Shown in pieces: positions 12,037-39,700 of a stretch of DNA of 64,000 bases. Position numbers and translations under genes: made by a program. The notes under the pieces were generated by a model. That model was given only the letters and a program-made list of their open reading frames with translations. It had not been told where the DNA came from and made no database searches. Source of the DNA: Azolla caroliniana (Eukaryota > Plantae > Polypodiophyta); NCBI GenBank assembly GCA_043228905.1, contig JBHGNT010000005.1:2108001-2172000 (forward strand), given 5' to 3'. Numbering within the stretch: position 1 is the stretch's first letter; each line of letters opens with the position of its first letter.

Positions 12037-12437
12037 TGTTAAGGACAAAAGAATCAGAGCTACAAGGATGCGATCAACAAGCCTAAAAGCGCTACAAAGA
12101 CACGATTGACAAGCTAAGGGTAACTATCATTAATTGGTGTTGTTCACCTTGAATTCATTCAAGGTGAACTCAAATATTTATACTAAGCGGCATGCATGCC
12201 TGTTGAGTGCATGTGATACACTAGAGCATGTATGTACGCATGTATGTACGCATGCATGTGCCAAGTGTGAATAATACAATGGAGCAATTATGCTCATGAT
12301 GCTAACTTAAAGCTACAAGGAACAATTATGCATATAACAAATGTATATTAGACATGTTGGTTAACACATAACTCTCGATTATAACACAAGAGGTCACGAG
12401 TTCGGATCTAGACAAGATCGTTGTCATGTCTATGACA
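12037..12437 (-). repeat. LTR of element D (TGTCAT...TTAACA)
   Basis: Follows PPT ggggataa, has TG..CA ends and TATAAATA at 12182-12175, and is followed by a self-complementary PBS at 12033-12018. Confidence 0.75.
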
Positions 12438-16353: not shown

Positions 16354-16851
16354 TTCGGTTGCCTCCGGGACGTGTCAGGAGTCGGTTTCTCAACATCCCT
16401 TCCTCCCTCGTCCGAGACCCCTGTGGTTCCGCCCCTTCTACACGCACGCTGTCGTGAAGATCCGTCACTACGCGCGGATCGTGAGGCGGAACCGCCGGGG
16501 TTCTGGACCAGAAGGATTTAGAGTCGATACAAGCTTTGGCGAGAAAGTACTTAAGATAGATTGGGAAAGAGAGAAGTTTGAGATTACACGATTGATTTGA
16601 TAACGAATTTCTTCCTCTTAATTTTCATAAAAAAAACTGTGTCTTTTCTCCTCCCCCTTCCCTCTTTTATAGATGCTCTCATGCATATGATGCATGTGAG
16701 GGTACAAGATATGCATAAATTGCATGTTTGCCATTTGGTGCTTATGTATTACATGTGGTGCATGATAACCATGTCACTCATTTTAGCTCTCATGTATGAG
16801 AATTTACATGTAAAAGTACGATGATAGAAATATAATTTCAACTAAATAGCA

Positions 16852-16905
16852 TGGCTTAATGGTAAGCCAATTGACTCCTAACTTGGAGGTGCAAGGTTTG
16901 AATCC
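16852..16905 (+). promoter_or_regulatory. tRNA-like Pol III A-box/B-box cassette in the 3' LTR of B (B box mutated to GGTTTGAATCC)
   Basis: TGGCTTAATGG ... GGTTTGAATCC; copy of 36541-36594. Confidence 0.65.
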
Positions 16906-17484
16906 TTACTTGCCCTCCTTGTATATGTAAATATGTATATATATTTACATATTTATTTATCTAGTCGCCGGTTCGCCGGATGCCGTCGGTTATCGATGCC
17001 GTCGCCGGATACCGGTGCTGCCGTCGGATCACCGTCCGGTTTTGGTTGGCCAAAACACTTTACGAGTAGTTAGCCCACCTCCACTCTTATTTCAAGTTAC
17101 CTTAAACTCTCTATGCTCCACACATAGACATAAGGATAATATCTTTTGCTCCACCTTATATATGATGAGAGCTATATTTGTCGTGCGTATGTGGGATATC
17201 TCACAATTTTCTCTTTTCCTTTTACAAACTTGATACCCTCATATCTTGACATTTAGTTGTCCGTTTCTCGTGTAATAAAGTGCATTTGAAACCTCCATCA
17301 TTTTGTACTTAAATATTAAATCTATTTAAAATGTTATCTTCACAATTATTGTACTATGTGATTCATACTCGATTTCGTACGTTGTCGTGAAGGGCCGGCA
17401 GGCGAAGAGTAAAGGCGGGCCGGTTTTCTCCGTGCCAACTTAATTTGGCGCATGCCGGTGGATGCGCGGTTAGGTGGGGGCGGA

Positions 17485-18183: not shown

Positions 18184-18186
18184 TCT

Positions 18187-18204
18187 TGGTGAACCCGACG
18201 TGAA
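18187..18204 (+). promoter_or_regulatory. Primer-binding site complementary to the tRNA-Trp 3' end
   Basis: TGGTGAACCCGACGTGAA is the reverse complement of plant cytosolic tRNA-Trp ...TTCACGTCGGGTTCA-CCA (recalled, not searched). The same PBS occurs in B, F and G, with variants in E and I. Confidence 0.88.
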
Positions 18205-18226
18205 GGAGGCGGCAGAAGAGCAGGAA

Positions 18227-20353
18227 ATGAGGGGGTCGGATCTCGCAGAGGCCATGGCTTCGGCCGTGGATCGGATTGTAAACGCGCGCGAGAGCACCGG
18301 TGCCCTCGACAGAGCTATTGAGGCGGTCGTCGGCACGATCGGCCGGTTCGATGGGAAGGATGCCACGAAGTATTTGGCGTCCTACGGTGCAGAGATGCTG
18401 ATGCGGGACATTCCGGAAGAAAGGCGTCTTGCCGGATTTCCCCGAGTAGCGATGCCGAGCATCCATGCGGAGGTGCTCGAGGTGCGGACGGAGAGCCGTA
18501 CCTGGGAGGAGTTCGAAGGTCGGCTCCTAGAGAAATACGGGCTGGACGACGCGCTCCGGCTTTCGAAGCGAAGGTTCATGGAATGGGTGGAGTCCCCGGG
18601 GAAGGGAAGAAACGCGTCGGCGCTCCTCCGGGAGTTCGAGGAAAACTTTGCGCGCCTTTCGGCGCTTGACCGAACCATCCTGGACACGAGCCGGGTCTTG
18701 CTGTTTGTCAAGTCGGTCGACGAGCGGGATCGGGAGCAAGTGGGCTTCTTGCTGGAAACCGAAGACGGGCTCACTACGGACTGGGCGGCTGTCAGGAAGG
18801 TCTGTGGCCGTTTCGACAAACGGCGAGAATGGGCGGATAACGGGGCGACCGGGTCGGGCTCGGTCGCAGCAAGGAAGCTCGAACCAGTGCCACAGGTGCG
18901 CAAAGAAGAGACCCGGGAGTGGTTGGAAACCGGTTCGGCTTCGACCGGCGTAATCAGAGGCTCAACCGGAGGAGCGGCGCTGGAGGAATTGACGAAGGCG
19001 ATAAAGGACCTCCAAATCGCGCAGGCCCGAAGGGAAGGAGGCGAACCGGCTCGTGACCGACGGCCGGCGGCAGGAAACAGGTGCATGTGGTGCGATGAAG
19101 TCGGCCACATCCGGAAGGACTGCGGCGACTTCGCGGAGGCGCTGAGGAACAGGGTGGTGTACCTGTGGGAAGGACGGGTGCATGCCAGCGACACCCGAAG
19201 GGCCCTGAGCCGAAACGACGGAAAGGGCGGTATGAAAAGGGTGATGGAAGAGGCGGCGGCCCGACACGCGGAAACCGTCCACTACTCGGCGTCGGCCGGC
19301 ATTCGAGTCGGGGGCGGCGATGCCCGGAGGGAAAGCAAAGCCGGATTCTGGCCGACGGTGCTGGAAGGCCTTGCCAATACGAGGATGAAGAGGGAGGAAT
19401 CGGACCGTGCGGAGAAACGGGTACGGGAGATGACCGGGTGGAGCGACCCGGTCAAGGAAAGGACGGGCTTCGTGGAAGCTGCTTGCCAGAACTACGAGGC
19501 TCTGGTAGAAGAGAAGCGGGTGGGGAGACCCGGGACGACCGGGCCCTCACAACGATACGAGACCCGGTCCGGGCCACGACGGGACGAAGCCGGCGGGGCC
19601 GGTACGCAAGATAAACCCCAGAAGGGCGGGTACCGTCTGGGGACGGAGATAGAAAGGACCACGGACTTACGAAAGGTCCTGGAGGAACGGATCCTCGACA
19701 GCAAGGTGGAGCTGTCGTTACGAGAGGTGCTGGGGATCGCCAAGAAGGAGTTCCACGACTCCATCGTGGACTTGGTGAAACGGAAGAGGCTGTCGACGGA
19801 GACAGAACCGGAAAGACCGGTGGAAGTGCGGACGACGCACCTAGACGACATGGTGCTGGGAGACGAGTGGGCGGAAAGCCACTATTCGAGACCACACTGG
19901 GCCCGAGCAACCACGGAAACCCCGGTGAAGATCGGCGATGTCCAGGAACCGGTGATAGCTTTGGTGGACCACGGATCGGAGATCAATTTGATGTCCATGG
20001 ACTTCTATAAGAAGGGCAAATGGCCGATCAACACCAAGCACGGGTGGAAAATAAGGGCAGCAACGCGCGCCACCGAGGAACTGCACGGGGCCTGTCCGAA
20101 TGTGCGGGTCAAGATTGGCGACGTCGAGATTGACCAGCACTTCTTCGTGCAGGAGACGTCTTCGCATCCGGTCATTCTGGGAGAACCGTACATTACGGCG
20201 GCGCGGATGGAGACCAAAGTGCTGGACAATGGTTCGGCCTATGCGAGGGTCAAAAGCCAAGACGGGCGCCATTCGGTCCAGTTTCTGACGGTAAGGCCGA
20301 ACCACGAACGTAACCGCGATTCCCTCGGTTCCGAAACCCGAGAGGATTTTTAG
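18227..20353 (+). CDS. gag: Gag-aspartic protease polyprotein of A
   Basis: Open frame with first ATG at 18227. CCHC knuckle CMWCDEVGHIRKDC; protease ALVDHGSEINL and HPVILGEPY; ends ..REDF-TAG. Confidence 0.93.
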   Translation: MRGSDLAEAMASAVDRIVNARESTGALDRAIEAVVGTIGRFDGKDATKYLASYGAEMLMRDIPEERRLAGFPRVAMPSIHAEVLEVRTESRTWEEFEGRLLEKYGLDDALRLSKRRFMEWVESPGKGRNASALLREFEENFARLSALDRTILDTSRVLLFVKSVDERDREQVGFLLETEDGLTTDWAAVRKVCGRFDKRREWADNGATGSGSVAARKLEPVPQVRKEETREWLETGSASTGVIRGSTGGAALEELTKAIKDLQIAQARREGGEPARDRRPAAGNRCMWCDEVGHIRKDCGDFAEALRNRVVYLWEGRVHASDTRRALSRNDGKGGMKRVMEEAAARHAETVHYSASAGIRVGGGDARRESKAGFWPTVLEGLANTRMKREESDRAEKRVREMTGWSDPVKERTGFVEAACQNYEALVEEKRVGRPGTTGPSQRYETRSGPRRDEAGGAGTQDKPQKGGYRLGTEIERTTDLRKVLEERILDSKVELSLREVLGIAKKEFHDSIVDLVKRKRLSTETEPERPVEVRTTHLDDMVLGDEWAESHYSRPHWARATTETPVKIGDVQEPVIALVDHGSEINLMSMDFYKKGKWPINTKHGWKIRAATRATEELHGACPNVRVKIGDVEIDQHFFVQETSSHPVILGEPYITAARMETKVLDNGSAYARVKSQDGRHSVQFLTVRPNHERNRDSLGSETREDF

Positions 20354-20409
20354 AGAGGACTGCCAAGGCGTGGGGCCGCGACAGTCCGGACACCCCGGGA
20401 AAACCCCAC
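20344..20409 (+). promoter_or_regulatory. Putative -1 ribosomal frameshift signal (GGATTTT plus H-type pseudoknot)
   Basis: The -1 frame is open from 20314 into pol. Stem 1 is 20357-20362/20382-20387 and stem 2 is 20370-20375/20404-20409. Conserved in B, G and I. Confidence 0.8.
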
Positions 20410-23400
20410 ACCTGTACGATAAAGCCGAAGAAACCTTGTACCATAGGTAGGGAATTTTTGTTCTCCGACAGCGGAGCGTGTACGGTAGTCGGCATCGGCG
20501 GCCGAGAGAAGAGAAAGGCGGAGGGGAGACTTCGAGCGTGCGGAGTTCTCGGCCCTGACGAGGAAATCGACGGAGCCGTGGAGGCGGTCTCATTCGACGA
20601 CACCTTGGGGATGCTGGGAAAGGTAGTCGAAGAAGGCCTTAACGAAGACCGGACGATACCGGTGTGTTCCGAGGAGATGTACGAAGTCATTGCGGACTTC
20701 GGTCGAGGGCTTGAGTCGGTACGAACGGCCCACGTAAGCACCAAGTACAAGACTGTGGACCGGAAGGTAAGGCCAGTCGCGGCACCCTTACCGGAGGACA
20801 GCGCGTCGAGAATCAAAGGGGTTGCATCGGACCCTAGTCTACGAGATCCGGCCTGCATAGGACACACCTTCACCGACGAGACGCTCCGAGAGCTCAAAAT
20901 CGGTGGGGGCGGGTTCCTACTGCCGGCGGAGGAAGACCGGTTTCGGAGAATGCTCGGAAGGCACGGGAAAGCCTTCGCATTCTCACCGGAGGAAATCGGG
21001 TGCGTCGACCCGACGATCGTGGAGCCGATGGTGATATTCACGGTACCGCATGTACCATGGAATCTCAAGCCAATCCCGGTTCCGAGAGCTCACATCCCGA
21101 AGTTGATGGAGCTGCTGAGGCAGAAAGTTGATATGGGAATTCTCGAGCCGTCGAGCGCCCCATATTCGAATCGATGGTTTACCGTACCGAAGAAAAACGG
21201 TTCGTTGCGCTTCATCCAGGACCTGCAGCCGGTCAATCGAGTGACGATTCGGAACGCAGGGATCGGACCGACCATAGACGAGTTCGCGGAGGCCTTCGCC
21301 GGAAGGTCAATTTACTCGGTCGGGGATCTATACTCAGGGTACGACCAGTTCCAGCTAGCCGTGGAGAGCAGAGACATTACGACGATGCGAACTCCCCTCG
21401 GCTTAGTTCGGATGTGTACACTGCCGCAAGGAGGGACCAACTCGGTGGCCCACATGGTGAATGCGATGAACAAGGTTCTGAGGGACTGTATCCCGGACAT
21501 CACCATGCCGTTTCTGGACGACATCCCGATCAAGGGATGCCCGGTGGAAGAAAAGGACGAGACGATCGGCCCGGACGGATGCCGGCGATTCGTGGCGACG
21601 CACATCGACGACTGCGAGAAGGTGCTGCAAAGGCTAGAGGATGCGAGACTCACCTTCTCCGGGGAGAAGTCGGCCTTCGGGCAGTCAGAAATCATGGTGG
21701 TCGGACACCTGTGCGGACCATATGGCCGGAAACCGTCTCCGGCAAAGGTAGAAGCCATCTCCGCGATGAAGCCCGACTGCAGCTCGGTCACGGAAGTACG
21801 GAGATTCCTGGGGGCATGCGCGTTCTACCACATATGGATCCCGCATTACGCACACGTCGCGGAGCCACTGTACGGGTTGCTGAAAAGGGGGCGAAGGTTC
21901 GAATGGCTAGACGAGCACGCGGAATCGGTCCGGAAGCTGAAAGAGGCTCTTGCAGCGGCACCGGCACTTCGGAAGGCGGTATACGGGAAGGGTACCCCGG
22001 TATTCATAACGGTGGATACCAGTCCGACCGGGATCGGATGGGTCGTGAACCAGGAAGACGAGGACGGCAATCGGTTTCCGATCCGATTCGGCGCGAAAGT
22101 CCTCAGTGAACGGCAGCGAGGATACGCCCAGGTTAAACGCGAACTCTGGGGTATTGTTTCGGCGGTTAAGGCCGACAAAGACTACCTGATAGGGACAGAA
22201 GTGATCATCGAGACGGATTGCCTGCCGATTCTCGGTATGGTTTCCGGATGCGCGACTCCGGACCTGGCGATGCTCAGGTGGATAGCGTACATCAAGTCCC
22301 TGGACCCGGAAATACGACACATTTCCGGGAAAGACAACGCCATGGCCGACATGCTTTCAAGAGCGAGGTTCGACGACGAGGGCGGCATGGTTTCGGAAGA
22401 CGAAGAAGTCGGCGTGGATTTCTTCGAGGCGGCATACATGACGACCGACGGGATGAGCACTCCGGCGCTTAACGAGTTCGACGCGAGCAAGTACGACGGG
22501 GAGTGGCTACAGATCGGCGGGTTTTTGAAGACAATGACGCCCGATGCGTCATGGACGAAGGAAGAGGCCAACCGGATCCGGAAGAAAGCATATCGATTCT
22601 TTCTCCGAGATGGGCATTTGTGGAAGCACCCGAAGAAGAGGAACGGCGTCCCGCTCCGGGTGGTGGCGATGAAGGAAGAACAGGAGGAGCTACTGGCGGC
22701 CTACCACGACAGCCCTTGGGCCGGACACCGTGGAACGTGGGCGACATTTGAGAAGCTGAAGGGGAAGTACTGGTGGCCGGGATTGTACCGGGACGTGCAT
22801 CGGTTCGTGTCAACTTGCGAGAGTTGTCAGATGCACTCGATAGTCCGACACCGGGACGGGCTTCGCCCTACGTACCCTCCGACTATCCACTTCAAATGGA
22901 TGGTAGATCTAGTGACGATGCCGATGGGGGTAGGACAGATGCGGTATCTGGTCCTAGCGCGGGAAGACCTGACGAACCAGGTGGAAGGCCGAGCCCTTCA
23001 GAATAAGACGACCGCGGCCGTGTGTCGGTTCCTGATCGAGGACGTGATATGCCGGTACGGGTGCGTCGGGAAGATCGTGGCTGACCGAGGGGAGTTGGAC
23101 ACCGAGGAAGCCGCGGAGCTGTTTGATCGGCTGGGAGTCAAACTCTCGCTCACCACTGCGTACAACCCGGAGGCGAATGGAAAGGTGGAGCGCGGACACG
23201 GGCCGATCGTTAAAGCGCTGGTTCGGGCATGCGGGGGCCAAATCGGTAACTGGCCGCGACTTCTACCATATGCTTTGTGGGCCGACCGGACTACGCACAG
23301 TTCGGTAACCGGGTACATGCCGACAGAGCTCATGTTCGGCCAGAAGCCGATCATGCCGATGGAACGAACAATCTCCTCATGGGCAACGGTCGACTGGAGG

Positions 23401-23841
23401 GACGAGGTGAGCCGGGAGGACTTGTTGGCAGCGCGCATACGACAACTCGAACGGAAACCGGAGGACGTGGAGACGGCTGCAGAAAGGATCCGAGTGGCGA
23501 GGATAAAGAACAAGGCCAGGTTCGACCGGACGCACCGACTCCGACCGAAGAAGATCGAACAAGGTGACTGGGTGCTCGTCTACGACAGCAGCCTCGACAA
23601 CCAGCACCGAGCCACACGAAAGTTCGCACGTAGGTGGTTCGGGCCTTACGTGGTACGGAGCGCCAATGACAACGGGACATATCACCTGGCGGAACTCGAC
23701 GGTACGAGAATAGCGATACCCGTGGCCGGGAAGAGGATCAAAGCTTTCAAGAAGCGGCACGACGACGAACCCGACCCGATTCTCCTGGACAGCAGCGACG
23801 ACCGATTCGAGGCCGAGGAAGGGCCGGCAGGCGAAGAGTAA
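20350..23841 (+). CDS. pol: RT-RNase H-integrase (Pol) of A, in the -1 frame relative to gag
   Basis: RT (DLYSGYDQ, LPQG, FLDD), RNase H (VDTS, KRELWG, TDC, ADMLSR), integrase HHCC (H..GH..CESC), D,D35E (VDL, ADRGE, NGKVE) and GPY motif. No chromodomain and no internal stops. Confidence 0.95.
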   Translation, partial: LERTAKAWGRDSPDTPGKPHTCTIKPKKPCTIGREFLFSDSGACTVVGIGGREKRKAEGRLRACGVLGPDEEIDGAVEAVSFDDTLGMLGKVVEEGLNEDRTIPVCSEEMYEVIADFGRGLESVRTAHVSTKYKTVDRKVRPVAAPLPEDSASRIKGVASDPSLRDPACIGHTFTDETLRELKIGGGGFLLPAEEDRFRRMLGRHGKAFAFSPEEIGCVDPTIVEPMVIFTVPHVPWNLKPIPVPRAHIPKLMELLRQKVDMGILEPSSAPYSNRWFTVPKKNGSLRFIQDLQPVNRVTIRNAGIGPTIDEFAEAFAGRSIYSVGDLYSGYDQFQLAVESRDITTMRTPLGLVRMCTLPQGGTNSVAHMVNAMNKVLRDCIPDITMPFLDDIPIKGCPVEEKDETIGPDGCRRFVATHIDDCEKVLQRLEDARLTFSGEKSAFGQSEIMVVGHLCGPYGRKPSPAKVEAISAMKPDCSSVTEVRRFLGACAFYHIWIPHYAHVAEPLYGLLKRGRRFEWLDEHAESVRKLKEALAAAPALRKAVYGKGTPVFITVDTSPTGIGWVVNQEDEDGNRFPIRFGAKVLSERQRGYAQVKRELWGIVSAVKADKDYLIGTEVIIETDCLPILGMVSGCATPDLAMLRWIAYIKSLDPEIRHISGKDNAMADMLSRARFDDEGGMVSEDEEVGVDFFEAAYMTTDGMSTPALNEFDASKYDGEWLQIGGFLKTMTPDASWTKEEANRIRKKAYRFFLRDGHLWKHPKKRNGVPLRVVAMKEEQEELLAAYHDSPWAGHRGTWATFEKLKGKYWWPGLYRDVHRFVSTCESCQMHSIVRHRDGLRPTYPPTIHFKWMVDLVTMPMGVGQMRYLVLAREDLTNQVEGRALQNKTTAAVCRFLIEDVICRYGCVGKIVADRGELDTEEAAELFDRLGVKLSLTTAYNPEANGKVERGHGPIVKALVRACGGQIGNWPRLLPYALWADRTTHSSVTGYMPTELMFGQKPIMPMERTISSWATVDWRDEVSREDLLAARIRQLERKPEDVETAAERIRVARIKNKARFDRTHRLRPKKIEQGDWVLVYDSSLDNQHRATRKFARRWFGPYVVRSANDNGTYHLAELDGTRIAIPVAGKRIKAFKKRHDDEPDPILLDSSDDRFEAEEGPAGEE

Positions 23842-23913
23842 AGGCGGGCCGGTTTTCTCCGTGCCAACTTAATTTGGCGCATGCCGGTGGATGCGCGGTT
23901 AGGTGGGGGCGGA

Positions 23914-24612
23914 TGTCGTGAAGAAAACCGCCCACAAGAGGAATCGGAGGAACAAGGCGTGGTAAACGGCTCTACACACACACACGAGCGCCAAGAAGTA
24001 CCTAAGGACGAAGTAGGTACATACGAGGATCCTAGGTGGGTAGATCCGGTTGGTATGCAGTTAATGCCAAACGGCCTCTTGACGGGCTATAAAAGGAAGA
24101 GGGAGAATAGAAGTGAGACATCTCGCGCAGGAGAGGACGAAGTGCTGCCGAACCGATTTCGAAGCTCTCTCACTCCTGCTTTCTCTGTCTTCTGCTCCAT
24201 CGCGTACCTGTGCAGGTTTCGAGGAGGCTTGCGCTGTTCCGTGGAACGCCCCGAGTGCGTCCTGCAGCACCTCCGACCTGTTTTCCCCTTTCTGTGCGTC
24301 GCGACATACAGGGGTCGGCATCTGTTCGCCGCCCTGTTCGTCTTCGTTAGTATCTATTTCGTGCCCCACCGTGGGTTGTAATACTTTAGCCTGTTATTTT
24401 CTTGCATTCATAAGTACATATCTCTCGTTGTTGCGTCCATCTGCGTCGGCGTTTATTTGTGATCTCTGTTTGTTGGGCCGTGTCCCTGTGCAATCTTCGG
24501 ATCTGTGTAATCGGGTCTCTCTCTCCTTCTCTCTCTCTCTCTCTTGCTCTTCGGTCCAAGACCCCCGTGGTCCCTCCTCCTTTCTGCACGCAAGGGCGTA
24601 GCAACCCCGACA
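23914..24612 (+). repeat. 3' LTR of A (699 bp)
   Basis: Directly follows PPT aggtgggggcgga (23901-23913). Confidence 0.95.
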
Positions 24613-27600
24613 ACGTTTTATGGGATTTTCACACTATTGTCGAAAATCTTCACGACATCCACCCCCACCAAACCGCACGTCCTCCGGTACGTGCCAAGAA
24701 GAGAAGAAGTGAGATTTCGGCTACGATGATCAATTAGATTCCTCCATGTCTTCATTTTCATCCGGCCTATTATGTTCATCATCGAGGTAATCGAGGTCAG
24801 GATCCTTGTCTTGTCTTTTCTTGAAAAGCTTTACTCTTTTTCCCGCAATGGGTACGGCCAACCTTGATCCGTCTAGTTCCGCAAGGTGGTATGTGGCATT
24901 ATCGTTGGCACTTGTCACCACATACGGCCCGAACCATCTTCTTGCGAACTTCCTTGTTGTACTGTGTTGATTGTCAAGGGTGCTGTCGTAAACCAAAACC
25001 CAATCCCCTTCTTCAATCTTCTTGGGACGAAGTCGATGCGTGTTGTGGAACCAAACTTTGTTCTTTACTCGGGCTGCCTTCATCATCTTTTGCGCTTTTT
25101 CTAAATCTTCAGGTCTTCTTTCAAGTTGCCTTATCCGCGCTGCTAATAACTCTTCTCGGCTCATCTCGTTCTCCCACGGTATCGCTACCCATGAGGCGAT
25201 CGTTCTTTCGATGGGCATAATCGGCTTTTGTCCATACATAAGCTCCGTCGGCATATACCCTGTCACTGAGCTATGTGTCGTTCTATCGGCCCACAAGGCA
25301 TAGGGTAATAGTCGTGGCCAATTCCCGACTCGATTGTTGTATGCCCGTACGATGGATTTAACGATAGGTCCACGCCCTCGCTCGATCTTCCCATTTGCTT
25401 CCGGATTGTAGGCAGTCGTGAGGGAGAGCTTCACACCTAGTCTTTTGAAGAGCTCCGTCGCTTCGTGCGCGTCCAACTCCCCTCGGTCGGCCACTATCTT
25501 CCCTACACATCCATATCGGCAAACAACATCTTCAAGTAGAAATTTGCAAACGGTTGAAGTCGTCTTATTTGTCAAGGCTCGTCCTTCCACTTGATTTGTC
25601 AAGTCTTCCCTTGCCAGCGCTAAGTACTTCATTTGTCCCACTCCCATTGGCATCGAGACCAGATCCACCATCCATTTGAAGTGTATGGTGAGTGGGTATG
25701 TCGGCTTTAACTCATCACGATGACGTATATTTGAATATACTTGGCAAGTTTCGCATGTGGACACGAAATGGAGTACATCTTTGTACATGCTTGGCCACCA
25801 GTACTTCTCCTTCAACTTTTCGAATGTCGCCCATGTTCCTCTATGACCTGCCCAAGCACTCTCGTGGAATTCGGTCATCAGCGTCTCTTGCTCTTCTTTC
25901 TTTACCACCACTCGACGTGGTATTCCTGTCCTTCTTTTTGGATGTCGCCAAAGGAATCCTCCCTTCAAGAAGTATCGATAAGCTTTCTTTCGGATTCGTA
26001 GGGCCTCCTCCTTTGTCAACGAAGCATCTGTCGTCAATGTTCTTAGGAATCTACCGATGAGTAACCATTCTCCTTCGTACTCGTTCTCGTTGAAGGCGTG
26101 GAGGGTTTGCGTGTCCTGGTCTTCCGCCGACAATCGAGCCATCTTGAAGAAGTTGAGGGCGACATCTTCATCTTCCGAAACCATGTTACTTCCATTTGAA
26201 AATCTTGCCCTCGACAGCATGTCAGCCATGGCGTTCTTCTTCCCTGCGATGTGACGGATCTCTGGGTTTAAAGACTTGATGTAGGCGATCCACCTTAGCA
26301 TAGCAAGATTTGGGGTCGCACATCCCGAGACCATTCCGAGAATTGGGAGACAATCTGTCTCTATTATCACTTCTGACCCGATCAAGTAATCTTTGTCCGT
26401 CTTCACTGCCGACACAATACCCCAAAGTTCCCGCTTGACTTGGGCATATCTTTGTTGCCGTTCACTGAGAACCTTTGCTCTGAACCGGACGGCATATCGC
26501 GCATTATCTTCACCTTCTTGATTGATGACCCACCCGATTCCGTTTGGGCTTGTATCTACGGTCACGTAAATTGGTTTCCCTTCGGCATAGTCGGCCTTCC
26601 TTAGTGCCGGAGCTTCAAGAAGCAGTTTCTTTAATCTTCGCATCGCCTCTGTGTGCTCGTCTAGCCATTCGAACTTTATTCTTTTCTTTAGTAGTCCATA
26701 TAACGGTTCGGCGACATGAGCGTAGTGAGGAATCCATATATGATAAAACGCGCACGCTCCAAGGAACCTTCGAACCTTCGTTTGGTTTTCGCATTCTTCT
26801 TTCATGTCTTGGATTGCGTTCACTTTGGATGGCGAGGGCTTCCGGCCGTATGCTCCACACAAGTGACCTACCACCAAGATCTCCGGTTGCCCGAATGCGG
26901 ATTTTTCTCCCGAAAATGTCAAATTCGCATCTTCGAGCCTTTGAAGCACCTTCTCGCAATCTTTCATATGATCCGCAACGAACTTTCTACAACCTTCCAT
27001 ATCTTTCGATTCATCTTTCTCCTCATCCGAACATCCTTTTATCGGAATATCATCCAAGAATGGCATCGTGATGTCCGGAATGCAATCCTTCAAGACTTTA
27101 TTCATGGCATTCACCATATGAGCCACCGAGTTCGTTGCGCCTTGGGGTAAGGTACACATCCGCACAAGCCCGATCGGAGTCCTCATGGTTGTAATGTCCC
27201 GACTGTCGATCGCCAATTGGAATTGGTCATATCCGGAGTAGAGATCGCCAATGGAGTAGATGGACCGGCCGCAAACGCTTCGGCAAATTTGTCCACGCTC
27301 GGACCGATTCCGGCATTTCGAATTGTCACCTTGTTGATGGGTTGAAGATCTTGGATGAATCGCAATGATCCATTCTTCTTCGGCACCGTGAACCACCTAT
27401 TGGTATAAGGAGCATTCGACGTTTCTAGAATTCCCATACTCACCTTCTCCTTTAAGAGCTCGATCAGCTTTGGAAGGTGTGCTCTCGGAACCGGTATCGG
27501 TTTCAAATTCCAAGGCACATGAGGCACCGTGAAGATCACCATCGGCTCTATAACCTTTGGGTCGGCGCATCTGATTTCTCGTGGGAACATTCGCGAAACA

Positions 27601-27864
27601 TTCGCTCCTCTTCAGGGAGAAGGAAATCCTCCTTTCCAACTCGTAGCTTCCCCTTCGTCTCTTTGGTGAAGTCATGACCTATCTTCTTCGGATCTCTTAA
27701 GCTTGGATCGTTAGTGACTTCCTTCATCTTTTGCCAGCTATCTTCCGGTAGCGGAACTGCAACTAGCTTGATCTTCTTATCCACCGTCTTATATTTCGTG
27801 TTGATGTCAGCTTCCTTCATTGAGATGCCACGACGGTATTCATCGATGATAGCGTGTCATGGCA

Positions 27865-27918
27865 AGACTCGAACCCATGACTTTATGCTACATGGGTCGA
27901 GCTCTTACCATTACATTA
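27865..27918 (-). promoter_or_regulatory. tRNA-like A-box/B-box cassette at the U3 end of the C LTR (second copy 33112-33165)
   Basis: Minus strand TAAT(G/C)TAATGGTAAG...GGTTCGAGTCT with tRNA spacing. Confidence 0.55.
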
Positions 27919-28364
27919 TGAATTGTATTTTGTAGGATATTATTTTCATTTATACTTTATCATAGAAAATTGATGTATATTCCAGATCTCTCTGGAACAT
28001 TCTAGAAGCTTCAGGATTATTCCTAAAAACACTATAAAAGGAGGCACAAGGCATTGTTTTGAACCAAATTGGTTCAACGCCAGTCTTAAGCCTCTTAGCC
28101 GCTTGTACTTATCTTTTCACATAATATATAGTTGTTGTCATCATCTCTCTCTCTCTCTCTCATTCTCGCTATCTCTCTCTCTCTCCTCTTCTCACTTCCT
28201 CTCTCGGGAATCTTACGCAGTCCCGTCCTCTTAGTACTAATAGTACTGCTGTTCTTAGTACTAATTCCATCTCTGTTTTAGTACTATTCCTGACAGTTTG
28301 AACCAATTTCTTCCTCTAGCCTACTTGTCACTCTCCCTCATCCTCCTACCCTTTTCTCTATACT

Positions 28365-29521
28365 ATGGCTACGGTTAGCGCCCAAGAATACCAATCCGTT
28401 TTCTCTGAGCTACAGTGCCTAAAAGAAAAGTTTGTTGCCCTGGAACAAGAAAACCAACGGTTGATAGGGGATCTGCAACAAATCGCTCTGGAAAAACAAC
28501 AAACGCAACAACAACATGGGGAGTTAGCGTTACGGGTACAACAACTCGAAGCAGCGTTGCAACAACAAGGATCCAGTCCCCAAGGATTTCATAAAGAGCC
28601 CAAGATTGGACTTCCTGTGAAATTTGATGGAACGCGTTCGCAATTCCGGGGATTCCTTAATCAGGTACGCTTAGTCATCCAGATGCATCCTTCCTGATAT
28701 CCCACTGATGCATCTCGAGTCGGCCTAATAGGCACGCTACTTAGCGGTTCAGCCTTGGCATGGTTTGCTCCGCTTCTAGAAAAACAATCACCCTTACTTA
28801 ATAACTTTGAAGATTTTATTGGTGAGTTTAAAGCCTGCTTTGGAGACACCGACAGCATCAGGACGGCGATCAACAAGATCCGGCGATTGCGTCAAGGCGA
28901 TCGTCCAGCCTCTGCCTACGCGGCGGATTTCCGCCTACTTGCTTCAGATATACCCTGGGATGATCAAGCACTAATGGAGCAGTTTCGCTATGGCTTGCGA
29001 AACGATGTCAAAGATCTACTTCTAACTTTCCCCGAAGAACCAAAGTCTCTTACGGAGGCAATCAGTCGAGCAGTTCGATGTGACAACCGCCTTTTTGAAC
29101 GGCGTTCAGAACGTCAATTACAGATACCACGCTCTAGGCCAGAGCCCACTTACGCCGCAGTCGCGGCTAAACCGTTTGCACGAGACATACCTCAAGCAAA
29201 TACTTCGACACCGATGGAGATCGATACCATGCGTCGACGCGGCCCGTTATCGGAAGAAGAAAAGCAACGACGATGTGCCAATCGATTATGTCTTTATTGC
29301 GGTGGACCAGGACATATCGCCATCAATTGTCCCCATAGGACAAGAAGACAGGTAATCAAATCGTCGCCTGTACTAAACCCGAGTCAATTCTTCCCTTCGG
29401 AGTGTCTGATAGTATTAATAGTACTAATAGAGTGTCAGATAGTATTCATAGTACTAATAGCCCAAGTATCTCAAATAAATTTGAAATCCTTAGTCAATTA
29501 GATGAAGAGTTAAACGATTGA
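28365..29521 (+). pseudogene. gag: gag of C (premature TGA at 28695; apparent 1-bp deletion near 29353)
   Basis: KEPKIGLPVKFDG, capsid-like LRQGDRPASAYAADF and QFRYGL, and CCHC CLYCGGPGHIAINC. The reconstructed frame ends EELND-TGA. Confidence 0.85.
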
Positions 29522-32500
29522 GTCCAGCCAAAATAGGAGCCATTTGGTTGGACAGCAGCCCTAGATCTGTACAGCCCATTAGTGGTTCCATTCCTTCCAA
29601 GCAAGTTAGCAATGTGTTCCTAGCCCAAGTCATTGTTAGTACTAAAAGTACTCCCCCAGTACCCGTCCTAGCACTTTTAGATTCCGGAGCTAATTCCTGT
29701 TTCATGGATCGAAATTTTGCCCAAGCTTCTCAGATATCCTTAAGAAAACTTCCTTGTCCCGCATCTGTAGTGGTCATTGATGGTCGTCCCATTGCTTCCG
29801 GGAATATTGTAGAAGAATCAGAACCCATTCAAGTTGTCCTAGGTAGTTTTGTGTGTATAATATCATTTAATATAATTAGTAGTCCAGAGCATCCCATTGT
29901 CCTAGGATTACCTTGGCTTGAATTACATAATCCAGCCATAGATTGGAGAACAAGAGAAGTCCGATATCGACCACCCCAAGAAGCAACTCACCGAGTTTCG
30001 ACCATTTCACTCCATCAACTACGCGAAGAAGGACCCAAGGAGGCAATGTTCCTATTTGCCATATCAGTACATCCTTCTAGCACTATTAAGAAGGACTCCT
30101 CAATACAACTTCCGGCAAAATATCATCCTTATGCCGATGTATTTGACAAGGTAAAAGCCGGTACCCTTCCTCATCACCGTCCCTATGACTGTCCCATCGA
30201 TTTACAACCAGGAACCGAGCCACCATGGGGACCAATTTACAACTTGTCACCCACCGAGTTAGAAGTCCTTCGAGCCTACATAGAGGAGAACTTGGCAAGC
30301 GGGTTCATCCGTCATTCGAAATCTCCGGCCGGTGCACCCATCTTCTTTGTCAAGAAGAAAGATGGCTCACTTCGTCTTGTCGTTGATTACCGCGGATTGA
30401 ATAAAGTCACCATCCGGAATAGGTATGCACTTCCTCTTATATCAAGTCTTTTAGAGCGAGTTAATGGTGCCAAGTTTTTCACTAAAATCGACCTACGAGG
30501 AGCGTATAATCTCGTGCGGATCCGACCGGGAGATGAGTGGAAGACCGCTTTTCGCACGCGGTATGGGCATTTCGAGTATACTGTTATGCCGTTTGGCCTA
30601 ACCAATGCACCCGCAGTCTTCCAACACATGGCAAATGATATATTCAGAGACCTCTTGGATATCTGTTTGATCATTTATCTGGATGATCTGTTGATTTATT
30701 CGAAGACCCAGGAAGAGCACGATTCTCATGTACTATTAGTACTAAAGCGACTCCGCGAGAATGGTCTTTATGCCAAGCTAGAGAAATGTAGCTTTGACTG
30801 CAAGCAAGTGGAATTTCTAGGCTACGTCATCTCCTCAAAGGGCATCGCCATGGATCCAGCTAAAATCCAAACTGTACTAGAGTGGCAAATTCCACGGTCG
30901 GTACGAGATGTACAATGTTTTCTAGGCTTTGCTAACTTCTACCGTAAGTTTATACAGGATTACTCGAAGATTATTTTACCTCTCACACAACTTACGAAGA
31001 AGGGCCAAGCATTTCTTTGGTCCATCGAAGCAGATATGGCTTTTCGGCATCTTAAGAAAGCCTTTACATCAGCACCGATTCTAGCTCATGTGGATACAAG
31101 CAAACCATTCATCATGGAGGCCGGCGCATCAGATTTCGCCCTCAGTAGCATCCTTTCTCAACAAGGCGATAAAGAAGAGTTGCATCCGGTGGCTTTCCAT
31201 TCGCGCAAATTCAATGTCGCAGAAATCAACTACGAAATACATGACAAGGAGTTATTAGCCATCGTGGATTCATTTGTACAATGGCGGCATTTCTTAGAGG
31301 GCTCTCCACATCAGGTCATTGTCTTTAGCGATCATAAAAATCTTGCTTATTTTCAGAACGCTCGCGTACTAAATCGACGACAAGCTCGGTGGGCGCAATT
31401 CCTCACGCGTTTCAACTTCGAAATCACATATCGACCGGGGAAGCAGCAAGGAAAAGCAGATGCACTATCACGGCGTTCATATCTTGCACCTCGTCCTGGT
31501 GACGCAACATTTGATAATCAAAAGCAAGTAATCTTGGGACCAACACGATTGCACACGACGCGGATTTTTCACACCCCGATGGATTCACGGATTACCGATG
31601 ACATACGTGCAACCTTGAAGACGGATAGTTTTGCTCAAGACATCCTGGCGCACATTGATACTTCTCGGGCATCCTGTTCTCAGTCTCAACAACCAGGTAT
31701 TGACTACCGACAATTCGAATATCATGATGGTTTGTTATTCTTTAAAAGGCGCGTATATGTCCCCGATTGCTCCTGTCGCCTTCAAATCGTCCAACATTGT
31801 CACGACACCCATACGGCGGGACATTTCGGTAGTACCAAGACGTTGGAGTTAGTGCAGCGATCTTTTTGGTGGCCCCACATGCGCCGTTTTGTCGACGACT
31901 ACGTTCGGACCTGTGATGCTTGCTGCCGAGCAAAGATGCCACGACACCATCCATATGGTTTGTTGGAACCTTTACCAATTCCAAGTAAGCCATGGCAGTC
32001 TATTTGTCTTGATTTTATTACAGATCTGCTGGTCTCGAAGGGGTTCGATGCTATCCTAACCGTCGTCGATCGATATACGAAGATGGCACATTTTGTGCCA
32101 TGTACTAAAGCCATCACTAGCGAGGAAACCGCCGCTCTTGTTATGCGTGAGGTATTTCGACATCATGGCCTACTAGACAGTATTATCAGTGACTGAGGCC
32201 CGCAATTTGTCTCCAAATTTTGGCAGCATCTCTTCAGGATGCTCAAGGTCTCCTGCAACCTCTCCTCCGGCTACCATCCTCAAACTGACGGACAGGCGGA
32301 ACGAACAAACCAAACGTTGGAGCAATATCTCCGGTGTTTCCTGAGTTATCAACAGGACGATTGGGCCGAGATTCTCCACTTTGCGGAGTTTGCGTATAAT
32401 AATGCTATTCACTCCTCGACTCGGGTCTCCCCATTTCTCGCTTATACCGGTTTCCATCCTCGCTGGTCGGTGATCGACACTCCGGAGCTACCTACCAACC

Positions 32501-33090
32501 CTCGTGCCGAGGACCATTTGGAGAGGCTACGCAAGATCCAGATGGATCTCTCTACTCACCTTCGTCATGCTCAACACACACAGAAGACTTATGCGGATCG
32601 TCATCGGATTCCCTCCTCTTTTGCCATCGGAGATCGAGTATGGCTCTTACGTCGTCACATCAAGACTACTCGACCGTGCGACAAGTTGGATTATCGACGA
32701 CTCGGTCCTTTCCGTATTACGGGGAAGATTAATGATGTCACCTTCCGCCTGGATCTCCCTCCGCAGCTTCAGATACATCCGGTTTTCCATTGTTCTCTTC
32801 TTGAACCTTATAAAGCAAACACCATTCCCGATCGTGTGACACCACCGCCGCCACCGCTGGAGTTGGACGCCGGCCCGGAGTATGAAGTTGCTGCCATCCT
32901 CGATTCCAAACTTGTTCGCAACAAACTTTATTACTTGGTCGATTGGCTCGGTTATAGTCCGAGCGAACGTACTTGGGAACCCGTCGAGAATGTTGCCAAT
33001 GCACAAGATCTTCTTGCTGATTTCCACCGGAAGTATCCGGACAAACCCGGTCCGCAATTAGCGCCGACTCGTTCCACTCGTCGTCTTTAA
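29518..33090 (+). pseudogene. pol: PR-RT-RNase H-integrase-chromodomain pol of C (one in-frame TGA at 32194)
   Basis: LLDSGA, YLDD, INYEIHDKELLA, HHCC, ISD*GPQF and EYEVAAILDS..YYLVDWLGY..TWEP. Confidence 0.93.
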
Positions 33091-33871
33091 GGGGGAGATA
33101 GTGTCATGGCAAGACTCGAACCCATGACTTTATGCTACATGGGTCGAGCTCTTACCATTAGATTATGAATTGTATTTTGTAGGATATTATTTTCATTTAT
33201 ACTTTATCATAGAAAATTGATGTATATTCCAGATCTCTCTGGAACATTCTAGAAGCTTCAGGATTATTCCTAAAAACACTATAAAAGGAGGCACAAGGCA
33301 TTGTTTTGAACCAAATTGGTTCAACGCCAGTCTTAAGCCTCTTAGCCGCTTGTACTTATCTTTTCACATAATATATAGCTGCTGTCATCATCTCTCTCTC
33401 TCTCATTCTCGCTATCTCTCTCTCTCTCCTCTTCTCACTTCCTCTCTCGGGAATCTTACGCAGTCCCGTCCTCTTAGTACTAATAGTACTGCTGTTCTTA
33501 GTACTAATTCCATCTCTGTTTTAGTACTATTCCTGACATAGCGTACATGTTGACGGAGTTAACCGAAATCACGCGTTGGTTGTGAAGATAGCTCAAGTCC
33601 ACGACGTCCTCGATTTCGCCGATGGTGTCGTTAAATGAGGCTTCTTCCATAATATGAGTCACGAACTCTCCTTCTTCTATTATATTCTCTTCTTTCAGCA
33701 TCTTCTCGAATTCTTGTATCCGGCGCTTGTGCTTCTTGTCGGGTAGTACTAGTTTACATGCGCCACTAGGTGTGACACATGTTGCTTCTCCTTGCAATCC
33801 ACGCGCTCTTCTTTCTTATGGGGTCTTGTGATTGCTCGGACTATTTGTGCCCCATGCTTCAATAGTCCGCT

Positions 33872-36077: not shown

Positions 36078-36540
36078 GTATTAATCTCGAATTGATCCTT
36101 CCTACCGCCTCTTTCACGTCGGGTTCACCACTTAATTATGTCGTGAAGATCCGTCACTACGCACGGATCGTGAGGTGGAACCGCCGGGGTTCTGGACCAG
36201 AAGGATTTAGAGTCGATACAAGCTTTGGCGAGAAAGTACTTAAGATAGATTGGGAAAGAGAGAAGTTTGAGATTACACGATTGATTTGATAACGAATTTC
36301 TTCCTCTTAATTTTCATAAAAAAAGCTGTGTCTTTTCTCCTCCCCCTTCCCTCTTTTATAGATGCTCTCATGCATATGATGCATGTGAGGGTACAAGACA
36401 TGCATAAATTGCATGTTTGCCATTTGGCGCTTATGTATTACATGTGGTGCATGATAACCATGCCACTCATTTTAGCTCTCATGTATGAGAATTTACATGT
36501 AAAAGTACGATGATAGAAATATAATTTCAACTAAATAGCA

Positions 36541-36594
36541 TGGCTTAATGGTAAGCCAATTGACTCCTAACTTGGAGGTGCAAGGTTCGAATCC
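36541..36594 (+). promoter_or_regulatory. tRNA-like Pol III A-box/B-box cassette in the 5' LTR U3 of B
   Basis: A box TGGCTTAATGG with D stem GCTT/AAGC, a CTCCTAA anticodon-like loop, and a consensus B box GGTTCGAATCC in a T arm AAGG/CCTT. The acceptor stem does not pair. Confidence 0.75.
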
Positions 36595-36652
36595 TTACTT
36601 GCCCTCCTTGTATATGTAAATATGTATATATATTTATATATTTATTTATCTA

Positions 36653-36790
36653 GTCGCCGGTTCGCCGGATACTGTTGCTGGATGCCGTCGGTTACCGGTG
36701 CCGTCGCCGGATGCCGCCGGATATGGTTACCGGTGCTGTCGCCGGATGCCGGTGCTGCCGCTGGATCACCGTCGCCGGATTGCCGTCCGG
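36653..36790. repeat. GC-rich degenerate minisatellite (gtcgccggat/gccg units) in the B LTR; shorter copy at 16964-17040
   Basis: Accounts for the ~62-bp length difference between the two B LTRs. Confidence 0.8.
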
Positions 36791-39700
36791 TTCTGGTTGG
36801 CCAAAACCCTTTACGAGTAGCTAGCCCACCTCCACTCTTAGGTCAAGTTACCTTGAACTCTCTATGCTCCACGCATAGACACAAGGATAATATCTTTTGC
36901 TCCACCTTATATATGATGAGAGCTGTATTTGTCATGCCTATGTGGGATATCTCACAATTTTCTCTTTTCCTTTTACAAACTTGATACCCTCATATCTTGA
37001 CATTTAGTTGTCCGTTTCTCGTGTAATAAAGTGCATTTGAAACCTCCATCATTTTGTACTTAGATATTAAATCTATTTAAAATGTTATCTTCACAATTAT
37101 TGTACTATGTGATTCATACTCGATTTCGTACGTTTTATGGGATTTTCACACTATTACCGAAAATCTTCACGACAACGCGCATAATAATGCGACATATTTG
37201 GTGAACTCGATGTGAAAGGCGGAAAGGGAGAATGGAGTTGGAAGAAGACGACTTCACGCAAATTTTTGTCGAAGCGGTGAGGGAGTTTGGACGAGCAACA
37301 ACAAGATGGGAGACGGCGCAGCAAGCTGTTAAGTGAGTGGTCGAAAGTGTCGGCCGTTTCAACGGGGACAAAGTCCCATTCTACTTGGAAGCCTACACTG
37401 CGGAAATGGAGGAGTGAGACGTAGATGAGGAGTTGAGGCTGGGGTTCTTCTATCGGGTCGTCGGCGTTCGTATGCACGCGGAAGTGAAGGAGCTCCGAGA
37501 AGCTTATAGTTCGTGGGAGGCCTTCGAAGAGGCGCTCCTGCAAGCATATGGAGGACGGTGGAAGAGCCGGGGACGACGTGGCTTCGACCAGTCGGTGGCA
37601 TCGGCGAAGACCCACTGGGCCGCAACGAAGGCGTTCTGAGAGTTCGAGTGAGGGCTTGCTCGGCTCCCGGAGCGGGAGCAAGGTTTGGTGGGGGTGGACA
37701 AAGTCCAGTTGTTCATTATGTCAATCGACCGAGCGGAATGGGAGGCCATCGGGATTGAGCTCGAAGACGAGGACGGAGCGAATGGCCTTACGGAGGACTG
37801 GTCGAAGGTCGGAAGGGTATGGCAACGGCTAGATGACAAGCGGGCTGAAAAGGCGAGGAGGAAAGCGTGCGACGACGCGCCATCACAACGGGAAGAGGTC
37901 GAATGGCAAAGAGAGTCGGCAAGGCTCGGCTTCGGGGCCAGGATTGCGGAGGCGTACACAGTTCTCGAGGCAATGCTCGAGGAAGAGGAAAGATCGAGGC
38001 CGCAAGCCGGCGCCGAGGAGATGGACCTGCCCCACGAGATGGCAGAAGATCGGTATGACTGTACCACGGGAGAGGATGCGGAACAAAATGTCCTCTCGAG
38101 TTGCGGAGATAGAACGGCCGAGATACCGATCGCAGAATCGGAACGTTGGACTGACAGTTTTGGGCAGGTCAGCCCAAAACTCCGGATATTAGAGAAGCAA
38201 GCCCAAGCAGGGCTTGCGCGATTGGTAAGAAGACGATTACCGACCATGAGGAGCCAATGGCTACAGACAAGGGTGTAAAACGGACGACGATTCTACGCAT
38301 CTTCCCACACTTGCTCCCGAGACGATGGCAGTCAGGCCTGAGTGCCCACATGAGTCCCAAGAGGATGAAGGCAATGGCGTGGTATCGAGAATCGCCGGTG
38401 AGACGATACGGGGAAGGAACGGACAAGAGCCCTCGGAACCGATTCCGGAGAACTCAACATTTAGGCCCTTACGCCCACGTGAGACCGAGGAGATGGATGA
38501 CGATATTGAGGAGTCCTGGCACGATGCCAACGAAGATGGATGGGAAATGGCCCGCGAGAAGGTCGAAGAAAGAACCAGGAAACGACCCGACCAAGGACCG
38601 AACTGCGCGGCAGTCCCATTCGGTTGGAGCGCGATCCGGTCGTGGATTGTTCGACCGGGGCCAAAATCGGCATGAAAATGCCGAAACGGAAGAGGGTGCG
38701 GGATGAGCCGTCCTCTTTTACATGGGGAGAAAGACCGACCGGGAAAAGGTCGGGAAAAGGAAGGGAGGTGATCAAGGGTTTGGAACGCGTCCAGCAGGAT
38801 CGACATCGGAGCCAAAACTCCGAACATTAGAGAATCAAGCCCATGCAGGGCTTGATTGATCACGGAGTGGATGCTATCCACCGACACCAATGAAAGGGTC
38901 GGTGGCCTAGGACAAGCTATCAGGAGTCGTTACGAGATCAGTATCCCCACATCTTGACCGGAGACTTCGGTAGTTAGGCCGGCGTGGCAACGTGAGACTG
39001 GAAGAGAAGGTAGATGGCGGGGAAGCGCAAGGAAGGGAACCAACGACAACGAGAGAGGGAAACGGAAGAGGCGGTTGACTGAAGTATGGGTCCTCCACAC
39101 TTGTTCTTACAATTTACATTTGTTCTTACAATTTCTTACAATTTACATTTGTTCTTATTTACAAAAACATCATGTGCGTGTGCAACATTGCACACCCCGG
39201 TTTTGTTCACTCCGCTCGGTTTTCCCCCTGTGGACAAAAATCTTCACGACATCCGCCCCCACCAAACCGCACATCCACCGGCATGTGCCAAGAAGGGGAA
39301 AGAGGTGAGATTTTCGCCATGGGGATCAACTGAGTACTTAGTGTCTTTGTCAACTTTGCCCGACTTCGTCTTCCACTTCGAGCAAGCTCGTCCTTTCCAC
39401 ATGGACCACCGTAGCTTCCCGGTCCGCCATACCCTCCGTATGCTCTCGAACCGTCGGCTCCATCCGATCCACCATACTCGACGGAGTTCGCCGAACCACT
39501 GCCTCCGCCCGATCTGCCAGACCCGATCTTTGGCTTCCTTCGTTTTCCGCTTGCGACCTTGGGCCGAATCCTCGTTCTTCCCGACTGTTTGCTGGACATT
39601 GCAACGTGTGCTCTTCGTTCACGCTTGTCTCGCCTCAGCCGCTTCCTCGACTTGGCACTGTCACACGCCAAACTTCGTCGTCGATCATCCTCATGCTCGT

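What the first reader, a model, noticed from the sequence alone, without database searches (positions are those of the whole stretch)
36534..36900. Outward-facing tRNA-like Pol III cassettes in the U3 of unrelated LTR retrotransposons (best candidate for a new system)
Seen: both B LTRs carry a tRNA-shaped unit with A box TGGCTTAATGG, an intact D stem and B box GGTTCGAATCC. Its acceptor and anticodon stems do not pair and it has no CCA. It lies ~180 bp upstream of the Pol II TATA (36353-36361, minus strand) and points away from it; the first T4 downstream is near 36895, beyond the GC-rich minisatellite. The unrelated chromovirus C, and probably D, shows the same position, orientation and (for C) spacing. 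Established: A/B boxes bind TFIIIC, tDNAs can act as chromatin barriers in yeasts, and Cassandra elements carry 5S Pol III promoters in their LTRs. Inference: convergent capture or exchange of a tDNA-like module that insulates the LTR promoter in heterochromatin or produces an antisense Pol III RNA. I am not aware of a description but cannot search.
Basis: partly seen in the sequence, partly recalled or inferred. Interest (0 to 1): 0.82.

Follow-up and report, generated by a model that had tools for sequence, protein, structure and literature searches.

The report
Backward tRNA promoter in retrotransposon LTRs
Several families of plant jumping genes carry in their end repeats a backward-facing remnant of a tRNA gene that keeps its promoter boxes but not its fold, and it likely acts as a protein-bound boundary that keeps the element's own promoter open.

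Summary
Real and inherited, function untested. An A-box/B-box unit lies antisense in U3 of Phygy-like element B, chromovirus C (pol 24% identical to B's) and, more decayed, chromovirus D. Four of five near-relative loci of C with a visible LTR at 69-75% or 51% identity (three families plus L015) carry it too; L018, L019 and L022 lack it. Across seven families the boxes, orientation, an AT-rich upstream patch and a 157-183 bp distance to the TATA (114 in C) are kept. The spacer sequence, cloverleaf and terminator are not. Rivals: passive relic (0.2), antisense RNA (0.17), self-damping (0.1). Against function: the B-box C-to-T allele is common among B copies, and the unit has been lost in relatives. 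Closest known are Helenus TRIMs (sense, non-autonomous) and foamy-virus U3 Pol III cassettes. The scan noted LTR-borne or antisense tRNA-like units before, in other genomes only.

The parts
36534..36606 (+). tRNA-derived unit in B 5' LTR: A box 36541-36551, 32-nt spacer, B box 36584-36594; anticodon position reads CCT
36501..36533 (+). AT-rich patch (79% AT) upstream of the unit, predicted TFIIIB platform; CAA at 36528-36530
   Evidence: role inferred
36361..36500 (-). CATG-rich U3 block between unit and TATA, with a GCCAAATGGC motif near 36419-36428 that is also in L013 and L014
36353..36360 (-). Pol II TATA box of B 5' LTR, divergent from the unit
36611..36790 (.). AT microsatellite (36611-36649) and GC-rich minisatellite downstream of the unit; first T4 at 36895
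36139..37174 (-). 5' LTR of element B (Phygy-like Ty3/gypsy, 16450-37174, TSD ACGC)
16845..16917 (+). second copy of the unit in B 3' LTR (16450-17382 plus 24617-24657); B box carries a C-to-T change at its CpG
27855..27925 (-). unit at the start of the 5' LTR (27855-28295) of chromovirus C; A box ends 27918, B box 27865-27875
33102..33172 (-). unit at the start of the 3' LTR (33102-33538) of C; folds as a long hairpin (z -6.6)
12342..12437 (+). degenerate unit (12349-12409, 38-nt spacer) at the start of the 3' LTR of decayed minus-strand chromovirus D

Best explanation
These LTRs carry an inherited, backward-facing tRNA-derived promoter in U3 that likely binds TFIIIC and TFIIIB and so would form a nucleosome-free boundary next to the element's own Pol II promoter. 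Shown: position, orientation, box retention across families, loss of the tRNA fold, no shared terminator, an AT-rich patch where TFIIIB would sit, and a distance of about one nucleosome (157-183 bp in 6 of 7 families) to a divergent TATA. Inferred: TFIIIC binds the B box and loads TFIIIB on the side facing the enhancer block; this holds the enhancer and TATA open and blocks silent chromatin or read-through from the flank; facing outward keeps Pol III off the Pol II promoter. Also inferred: one old capture in a plant Tcn1-like chromovirus clade with later losses, and a separate capture or U3 swap in Phygy-like family B. Any RNA made is probably a by-product.
For: 1. Among 69 regions downstream of chromodomains, antisense A/B units at 4 mismatches or fewer occur in 6 of 11 rows of the plant-like clade versus 2 of 58 others; sense hits 1 of 11 and 0 of 58 (L012 and L081 are one family; not every region holds an LTR).
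2. Carriers are 69-75% (L012/L081, L013, L014) and 51% (L015) identical to C in pol, yet their spacers share only 9-19 of 32 bases; conservation peaks at the B box.
3. No structural selection: T-stem and anticodon-stem pairing do not exceed partner permutations (P 0.13-0.36), acceptor 1-3 of 7.
4. The 33 nt upstream are 73-88% AT in 7 of 7 families, above the next 80 nt in each (50-71%).
5. In contigs laid on B's unit, variants of 2% or more hit 11 of 32 spacer positions and 0 of 17 non-degenerate, non-CpG box positions (Fisher p 0.009). Loose ends begin at the A box and just after the B box, so the core also sits in other contexts, including in organism E.
6. C has a cage-type chromodomain, the type proposed to aim at heterochromatin (PMC3350952, passages). 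Pol III complexes act as barriers, roadblocks and nucleosome phasers in yeast (PMC4228148, PMC11346459, passages).
Against: 1. No binding, chromatin or transcript data.
2. The B-box C-to-T allele holds 29% (X1), 27% (X6) and 53% (X22) of summed contig depth, at least as much as the tolerated G-to-A allele at the same CpG (10%, 21%, 14%), so it is not visibly purged in family B. One of B's two LTRs has it.
3. Counting all box positions the contrast vanishes: 4 of 22 versus 11 of 32, p 0.23; with the CpG only, p 0.10. The 17-position set was chosen after seeing the data.
4. The unit is absent from L018 (78% nucleotide identity to D over pol), L019 and L022, and no unit at 4 mismatches or fewer is in 10 other LTR-like stretches of the window. 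It is dispensable.
5. CpG methylation excludes TFIIIC (PMC11346459, passage), which weakens a barrier role in methylated plant heterochromatin. The plant barrier review cites tRNA-gene/TFIIIC barriers from yeast and animals (PMC9540200, passages).
6. The conserved GGTCA before the B box can pair with the LTR terminus, so it is not independent support.
7. U3 regions are AT-rich in general.
Confidence: 0.4

Rival explanations
1. Passive relic: a tRNA or SINE head was copied into U3 (for example by reverse transcriptase reading a tRNA, which gives this orientation by itself) and has been carried along without function.
For: Losses in L018, L019, L022; common B-box C-to-T allele; all-position box test not significant; B's unit is followed by an AT simple repeat like a SINE tail; Repbase holds 'not a few' LTRs with tRNA-like pieces (PMC10886601).
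Against: Boxes, spacing and orientation persist across families whose spacers share 9-19 of 32 bases and whose pol differs by 25-49%; no exact target-site duplication of 7 nt or more flanks the units; no copy outside LTRs in the window.
Confidence: 0.2
2. The product matters: Pol III makes an antisense RNA, either a hairpin small-RNA precursor as in foamy viruses or a long RNA running from the 3' LTR over the polypurine tract and integrase end that limits copy number.
For: C's unit folds as a long hairpin (z -6.6, 0 of 200 shuffles) and B's as two hairpins (z -2.8); C and L012 have no T4 within about 560-630 nt downstream, so a transcript would enter the coding end; precedent in U3 of simian foamy virus (PMC3993851, passages).
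Against: D, L012 and L014 do not fold better than shuffles; folds differ between families; T4 distance runs from 11 nt to none found; no stem covariation.
Confidence: 0.17
3. Same bound complex, opposite effect: the Pol III complex dampens the neighbouring LTR promoter (tRNA-gene-mediated silencing), a built-in brake that lowers harm or detection.
For: All promoter-level evidence above fits equally; inhibition of nearby Pol II promoters by tRNA genes is described in yeast (PMC4228148, passages).
Against: Carriers include an abundant family (546 and 1000 contigs lay on 151 bp in X1 and X6); no direct evidence either way.
Confidence: 0.1
4. RNA-level role in reverse transcription: the complement of the unit in the genomic RNA pairs with the primer tRNA and helps minus-strand transfer, as reported for a tRNA-Lys3-like sequence in HIV-1 U3-R.
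For: The orientation is the one needed; precedent seen as a review passage and reference title (PMC6468702). B has a Trp-type primer site.
Against: B's core matches a eukaryote-type tRNA-Trp (L092, a proxy from a bacterial assembly, not the host's) at 31 of 54, no better than other units (24-31) or a bacterial Arg-CCT tRNA (29). C, L012 and L014 have self-priming sites and need no tRNA primer.
Confidence: 0.05
5. Landing pad or decoy for elements that target Pol III start sites, as Ty3 does.
For: An unreviewed note from another genome describes elements stacked upstream of an LTR-borne tRNA-like unit (e1-10420559).
Against: None of the nested insertions mapped here (A into B's 3' LTR, C into B's coding region, B into another LTR) lies at a unit's predicted start; B's two unit-bearing U3 blocks align without insertion.
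Confidence: 0.04

Closest known systems
Helenus / TRIMp3 (Kojima 2024, PMC10886601; main text parts 1-5 of 6 read, supplement searched with two terms)
   Same: tRNA-derived sequence in LTRs, A and B boxes conserved, tRNA fold mostly lost; one plant case (Selaginella).
   Different: Helenus are 0.3-1.3 kb non-coding TRIMs whose unit is proposed to drive the element RNA and is in sense in Helenus-1_SMo. Here the carriers are gag-pol elements with their own TATA and the unit is antisense. The paper argues that autonomous partners must use Pol II and does not describe such elements.
Cassandra and Ajax TRIMs (PMC10886601; 10.1101/2023.07.14.548913, passages)
   Same: Pol III promoter from a small-RNA gene inside an LTR; Cassandra occurs in ferns.
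   Different: 5S-derived, non-autonomous, replaces the Pol II promoter.
Foamy virus U3 Pol III miRNA cassettes (PMC3993851, passages)
   Same: A/B-box Pol III units in U3 of an autonomous LTR element, beside a Pol II promoter.
   Different: They have terminators at hairpin bases and make miRNAs; here the units are tRNA-shaped, without a shared hairpin or terminator.
tDNA / TFIIIC chromatin barriers and roadblocks of yeast (PMC4228148, PMC11346459, passages)
   Same: Proposed way of working: a bound Pol III complex shapes neighbouring chromatin and Pol II transcription.
   Different: Host tRNA genes at fixed loci, shown by experiment; here a non-decoding copy carried by mobile elements, untested.
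tRNA-Lys3-like sequence in HIV-1 U3-R (title and one passage via PMC6468702; paper not read); Ty3 bipartite primer site (recalled)
   Same: tRNA-complementary sequence in U3 of the genomic RNA.
   Different: No special match to the primer tRNA here, and the chromovirus carriers self-prime.

Membership tests
Helenus / TRIMp3 | tRNA-like sequence in the LTR with conserved A and B boxes | tested here: met
Helenus / TRIMp3 | short non-coding TRIM (about 0.3-1.3 kb) | tested here: not met
   B about 7.8 kb without its inserts and C 5.7 kb, both with pol domains
Helenus / TRIMp3 | unit in sense, serving as the element's promoter instead of Pol II | tested here: not met
   antisense with a separate TATA in 7 of 7 carriers; Helenus-1_SMo is sense
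Functional tRNA gene | cloverleaf with paired acceptor and anticodon stems | tested here: not met
   ARAGORN 0 genes; no Rfam tRNA hit up to E 10; acceptor 1-3 of 7
tRNA-derived SINE | free copies with body, tail and target-site duplication | tested here: inconclusive
   no free copy in the window; no exact TSD; but the core has other, unidentified flanks in contigs and no whole genome is held
Retroviral Pol III miRNA cassette | hairpin with a T-run terminator at its base | tested here: not met
   C has the hairpin but no T4 within about 560-610 nt; terminator positions not shared
Retroviral Pol III miRNA cassette | Pol III-dependent small RNAs | not testable with these tools
   only contigs were available
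tDNA-type chromatin barrier | TFIIIC/TFIIIB occupancy and box-dependent block to silencing | not testable with these tools
   needs ChIP and reporters
Tcn1 chromovirus (elements C, D) | cage-type chromodomain, self-priming site, 5-bp TSD | tested here: met
   for C; criteria from PMC6317226, PMC3350952, PMC2864245 (passages); D shows only an SH3 domain hit and clade position
Tcn1 chromovirus (elements C, D) | placement with named reference elements in a pol tree | not tested
   the tree held no named references
Phygy non-chromovirus (element B) | no chromodomain; 4-bp NCGN target site | tested here: met
   (TSDs ACGC for B, ACGT for A); criterion from PMC6317226
Phygy non-chromovirus (element B) | placement with REXdb Phygy references | not tested
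   no reference sequences available

The most novel reading that the evidence does not exclude
Autonomous LTR retrotransposons of non-seed plants have, at least twice, turned a tRNA gene into a portable outward-facing TFIIIC/TFIIIB boundary built into U3, kept for a long time in a heterochromatin-targeting chromovirus clade and passed between families as a module, so that each new insertion brings its own chromatin insulator.
Probability: 0.33. Interest if true: 0.82.

Novelty: new variant of a known kind. Interest (0 to 1): 0.6.

Why it matters
How elements that land in silent chromatin still get transcribed is an open question. A borrowed Pol III promoter used as a boundary would be a new, easily tested answer, and the first TFIIIC-type barrier candidate in plants among the papers I saw. 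Natural pairs with and without the unit (D or L015 versus L018) and a one-base B-box mutant give ready controls. Such units may also add to the thousands of tRNA-like calls in some non-seed plant genomes (PlantRNA 2.0, passage), though that link was not tested.

Tried and rejected
- No whole genome is held, so no genome-wide LTR or SINE census was possible.
- ARAGORN and Rfam found no tRNA. ARAGORN at a lowered threshold gave 109 calls in the window, which is noise.
- No RNA holder listed. X19, a guessed RNA run, gave five contigs, which cannot show strand or start.
- Viral contigs: no relative of B pol, single or aligned; ten distant chromoviruses for C; one chance pattern hit; two blank patterns. 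B's lineage outside the window could therefore not be examined for the unit.
- L013's unit was missed by the strict scan and scored 4 mismatches.
- U3 swap from a chromovirus into B: enhancer-only alignments gave 7-8 of 300 shuffles for L014, C and D and nothing for five others, too weak after eight tests.
- Label clustering on the tree was not significant (88 of 500 shuffles). The tree is the quick version, and L012_8604 was labelled 'unit' although its own 3' LTR is not in the contig.
- Covariation between the LTR terminus and the unit: P 0.26.
- X21 (organism D) held only the AT microsatellite.
- Ten literature searches found no description of antisense tRNA-type promoters in autonomous plant LTR elements. 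The library lacks most subscription papers, and the main supplementary PDF of PMC6786969, which may discuss tRNA-like repeats, could not be read.
- Scan notes by sequence and nearby place were blank.

Full report
Setting. The window is a nest of LTR retrotransposons beside AT-rich DNA. Element B runs on the minus strand from 37174 to 16450 with a 4-bp target duplication ACGC; element A splits its 3' LTR and chromovirus C (27855-33538, TSD TAGCG) sits in its coding region. B lacks a chromodomain and, like A, has an NCGN target site, a trait reported for Phygy elements. C has a cage-type chromodomain and a primer site complementary to its own R region, as reported for Tcn1 elements. Their pol proteins are 24% identical. 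The host is not identified. Named homologs of B pol come from Riccia and Adiantum, so a non-seed land plant is inferred.

The observation. An A/B-box scan of both strands returned four hits with 2 mismatches or fewer, all in the LTRs of B and C, all antisense, all with a 32-nt spacer; resampled sequence gave 0.1. The 3' LTR of B has a C-to-T change in the B box, one of 27 differences in 970 aligned LTR positions. No tRNA finder accepts the unit. A weaker unit lies at the LTR start of a decayed chromovirus, D.

Is it part of the family? Contigs of public runs cover B's unit along with the rest of the LTR; 546 and 1000 contigs from two organisms lay on 36490-36640, some bridging the unit and its upstream flank. 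Loose ends begin at the A box and just after the B box, and in organism E some contigs align to the unit alone. So the core also exists with other flanks; whether these are other LTR families or a SINE is unresolved.

Is it kept over time? A metagenome scan with an alignment of C pol returned 79 loci. The LTRs of L012/L081, L013, L014 and L015 carry an antisense unit within about 110 nt of the LTR start; L018, L019 and L022 do not. In a blind scan of 69 post-chromodomain regions, antisense hits with 4 mismatches or fewer were 6 of 11 in the plant-like clade and 2 of 58 elsewhere; at 3 or fewer, 4 of 11 and 0 of 58. On a quick integrase tree the carriers fall in a 12-row clade (support 91) that needs three changes, such as one gain and two losses.

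What is kept? Across seven families the B box and the bases just before it are conserved, the spacer is not (9-19 of 32 identical). Stems pair no better than with permuted partners. There is no common terminator. All seven have an AT-rich patch just upstream, where plant tRNA genes have TATA-like and CAA elements; CAA itself is seen in B, C and D only. The A box lies 157-183 bp from the divergent TATA in six families and 114 bp in C. This is the pattern of a DNA-level promoter, not of a structured RNA.

Results against. In family B the C-to-T allele at the B-box CpG is as common as, or commoner than, the tolerated G-to-A allele (contig depth is a crude measure). The box-versus-spacer contrast is significant only for non-degenerate, non-CpG positions (p 0.009 versus 0.23 for all). 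Close relatives have lost the unit, and ten other LTR-like stretches in the window lack it (boundaries set by eye). C's and B's units do fold better than shuffles, which keeps an RNA role open. The conserved bases before the B box can pair with the LTR terminus, and terminal hairpins are also predicted in unit-less L018 and L022.

Mechanism. I commit, at 0.4, to a TFIIIC/TFIIIB-bound boundary. In yeast, Pol III complexes phase nucleosomes, block silencing and stop Pol II read-through, and can also repress nearby promoters. An outward-facing unit would place TFIIIB toward the enhancer and keep Pol III off the TATA. All of this is inferred; methylation of the B-box CpG would switch it off in old copies. 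Rivals are a passive relic, an antisense RNA, a brake, pairing with the primer tRNA (no special match to tRNA-Trp; the chromoviruses self-prime) and a landing pad (no nested insertion at a unit).

Origin. The chromovirus units most simply descend from one capture. B's unit keeps more tRNA character (D hairpin, 4 Watson-Crick T-stem pairs, CCT at the anticodon position), which suggests a separate, younger capture; a U3 swap is not excluded, given a shared 10-mer with L013 and L014. That reverse transcriptase copying a tRNA would yield this orientation without selection is my inference.

Relation to known systems. Helenus TRIMs carry tRNA-derived boxes in LTRs but are non-coding and, in the plant example I saw, sense-oriented. 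That paper also notes that other Repbase LTRs hold tRNA-like pieces, without describing them. Foamy viruses have Pol III cassettes in U3 that make miRNAs. Ten searches found no report of this arrangement in autonomous plant elements. Verdict: a real, lineage-level feature and a new variant of a known kind; interest 0.6.

Noticed in passing
window 27855-27900, 33102-33150; L013 3342, L014 4039, L015 4134, L018 1851, L022 2877: The first bases of these chromovirus LTRs are predicted to pair with a nearby complement, giving a hairpin right after the polypurine tract, with or without the tRNA-like unit; L014 changes both arms together (permutation P 0.26).
   Followed up: partly
window 28067-28078 and 28296-28308; L012 about 4490 and 4647; L014: Self-priming pair: the primer site and the R-region sequence differ between families but stay complementary in C, L012 and L014.
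   Followed up: partly
window 36361-36500 and 12190-12320; L013 3560; L014 4191-4237; L018 1851-1950: CATG/RY-like-rich U3 blocks in B, D, L013, L014 and L018, and an exact GCCAAATGGC in B, L013 and L014 (6 hits in 1.46 Mb of both strands); possible shared plant transcription-factor sites.
   Followed up: partly
window 17383-24612: Element A has LTRs 99.9% identical and long open frames, so it is a very recent insertion into the tip of B's 3' LTR.
   Followed up: no
window 12437-37196: Four-level nest: D is interrupted by a plus-strand element whose LTR starts near 15694, B sits in that LTR, and A and C sit in B.
   Followed up: partly
window 36131-36138: B has 8 nt between LTR and primer site, where related elements in the window show about 4.
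   Followed up: no
window 36656-36790 versus 16967-17040: The GC-rich minisatellite in B's U3 differs in length by about 60 nt between the two LTRs.
   Followed up: no
window 28367-33090: This copy of C has in-frame stops in gag and integrase although its LTRs are 98.4% identical.
   Followed up: no
window 60089-62345 and 10845-11369: A truncated Copia-like element (judged by eye) and a LINE-type zf-RVT fragment.
   Followed up: no
L091, L092: Eukaryote-type tRNA-Trp-like genes inside bacterial assemblies, probably contamination.
   Followed up: no
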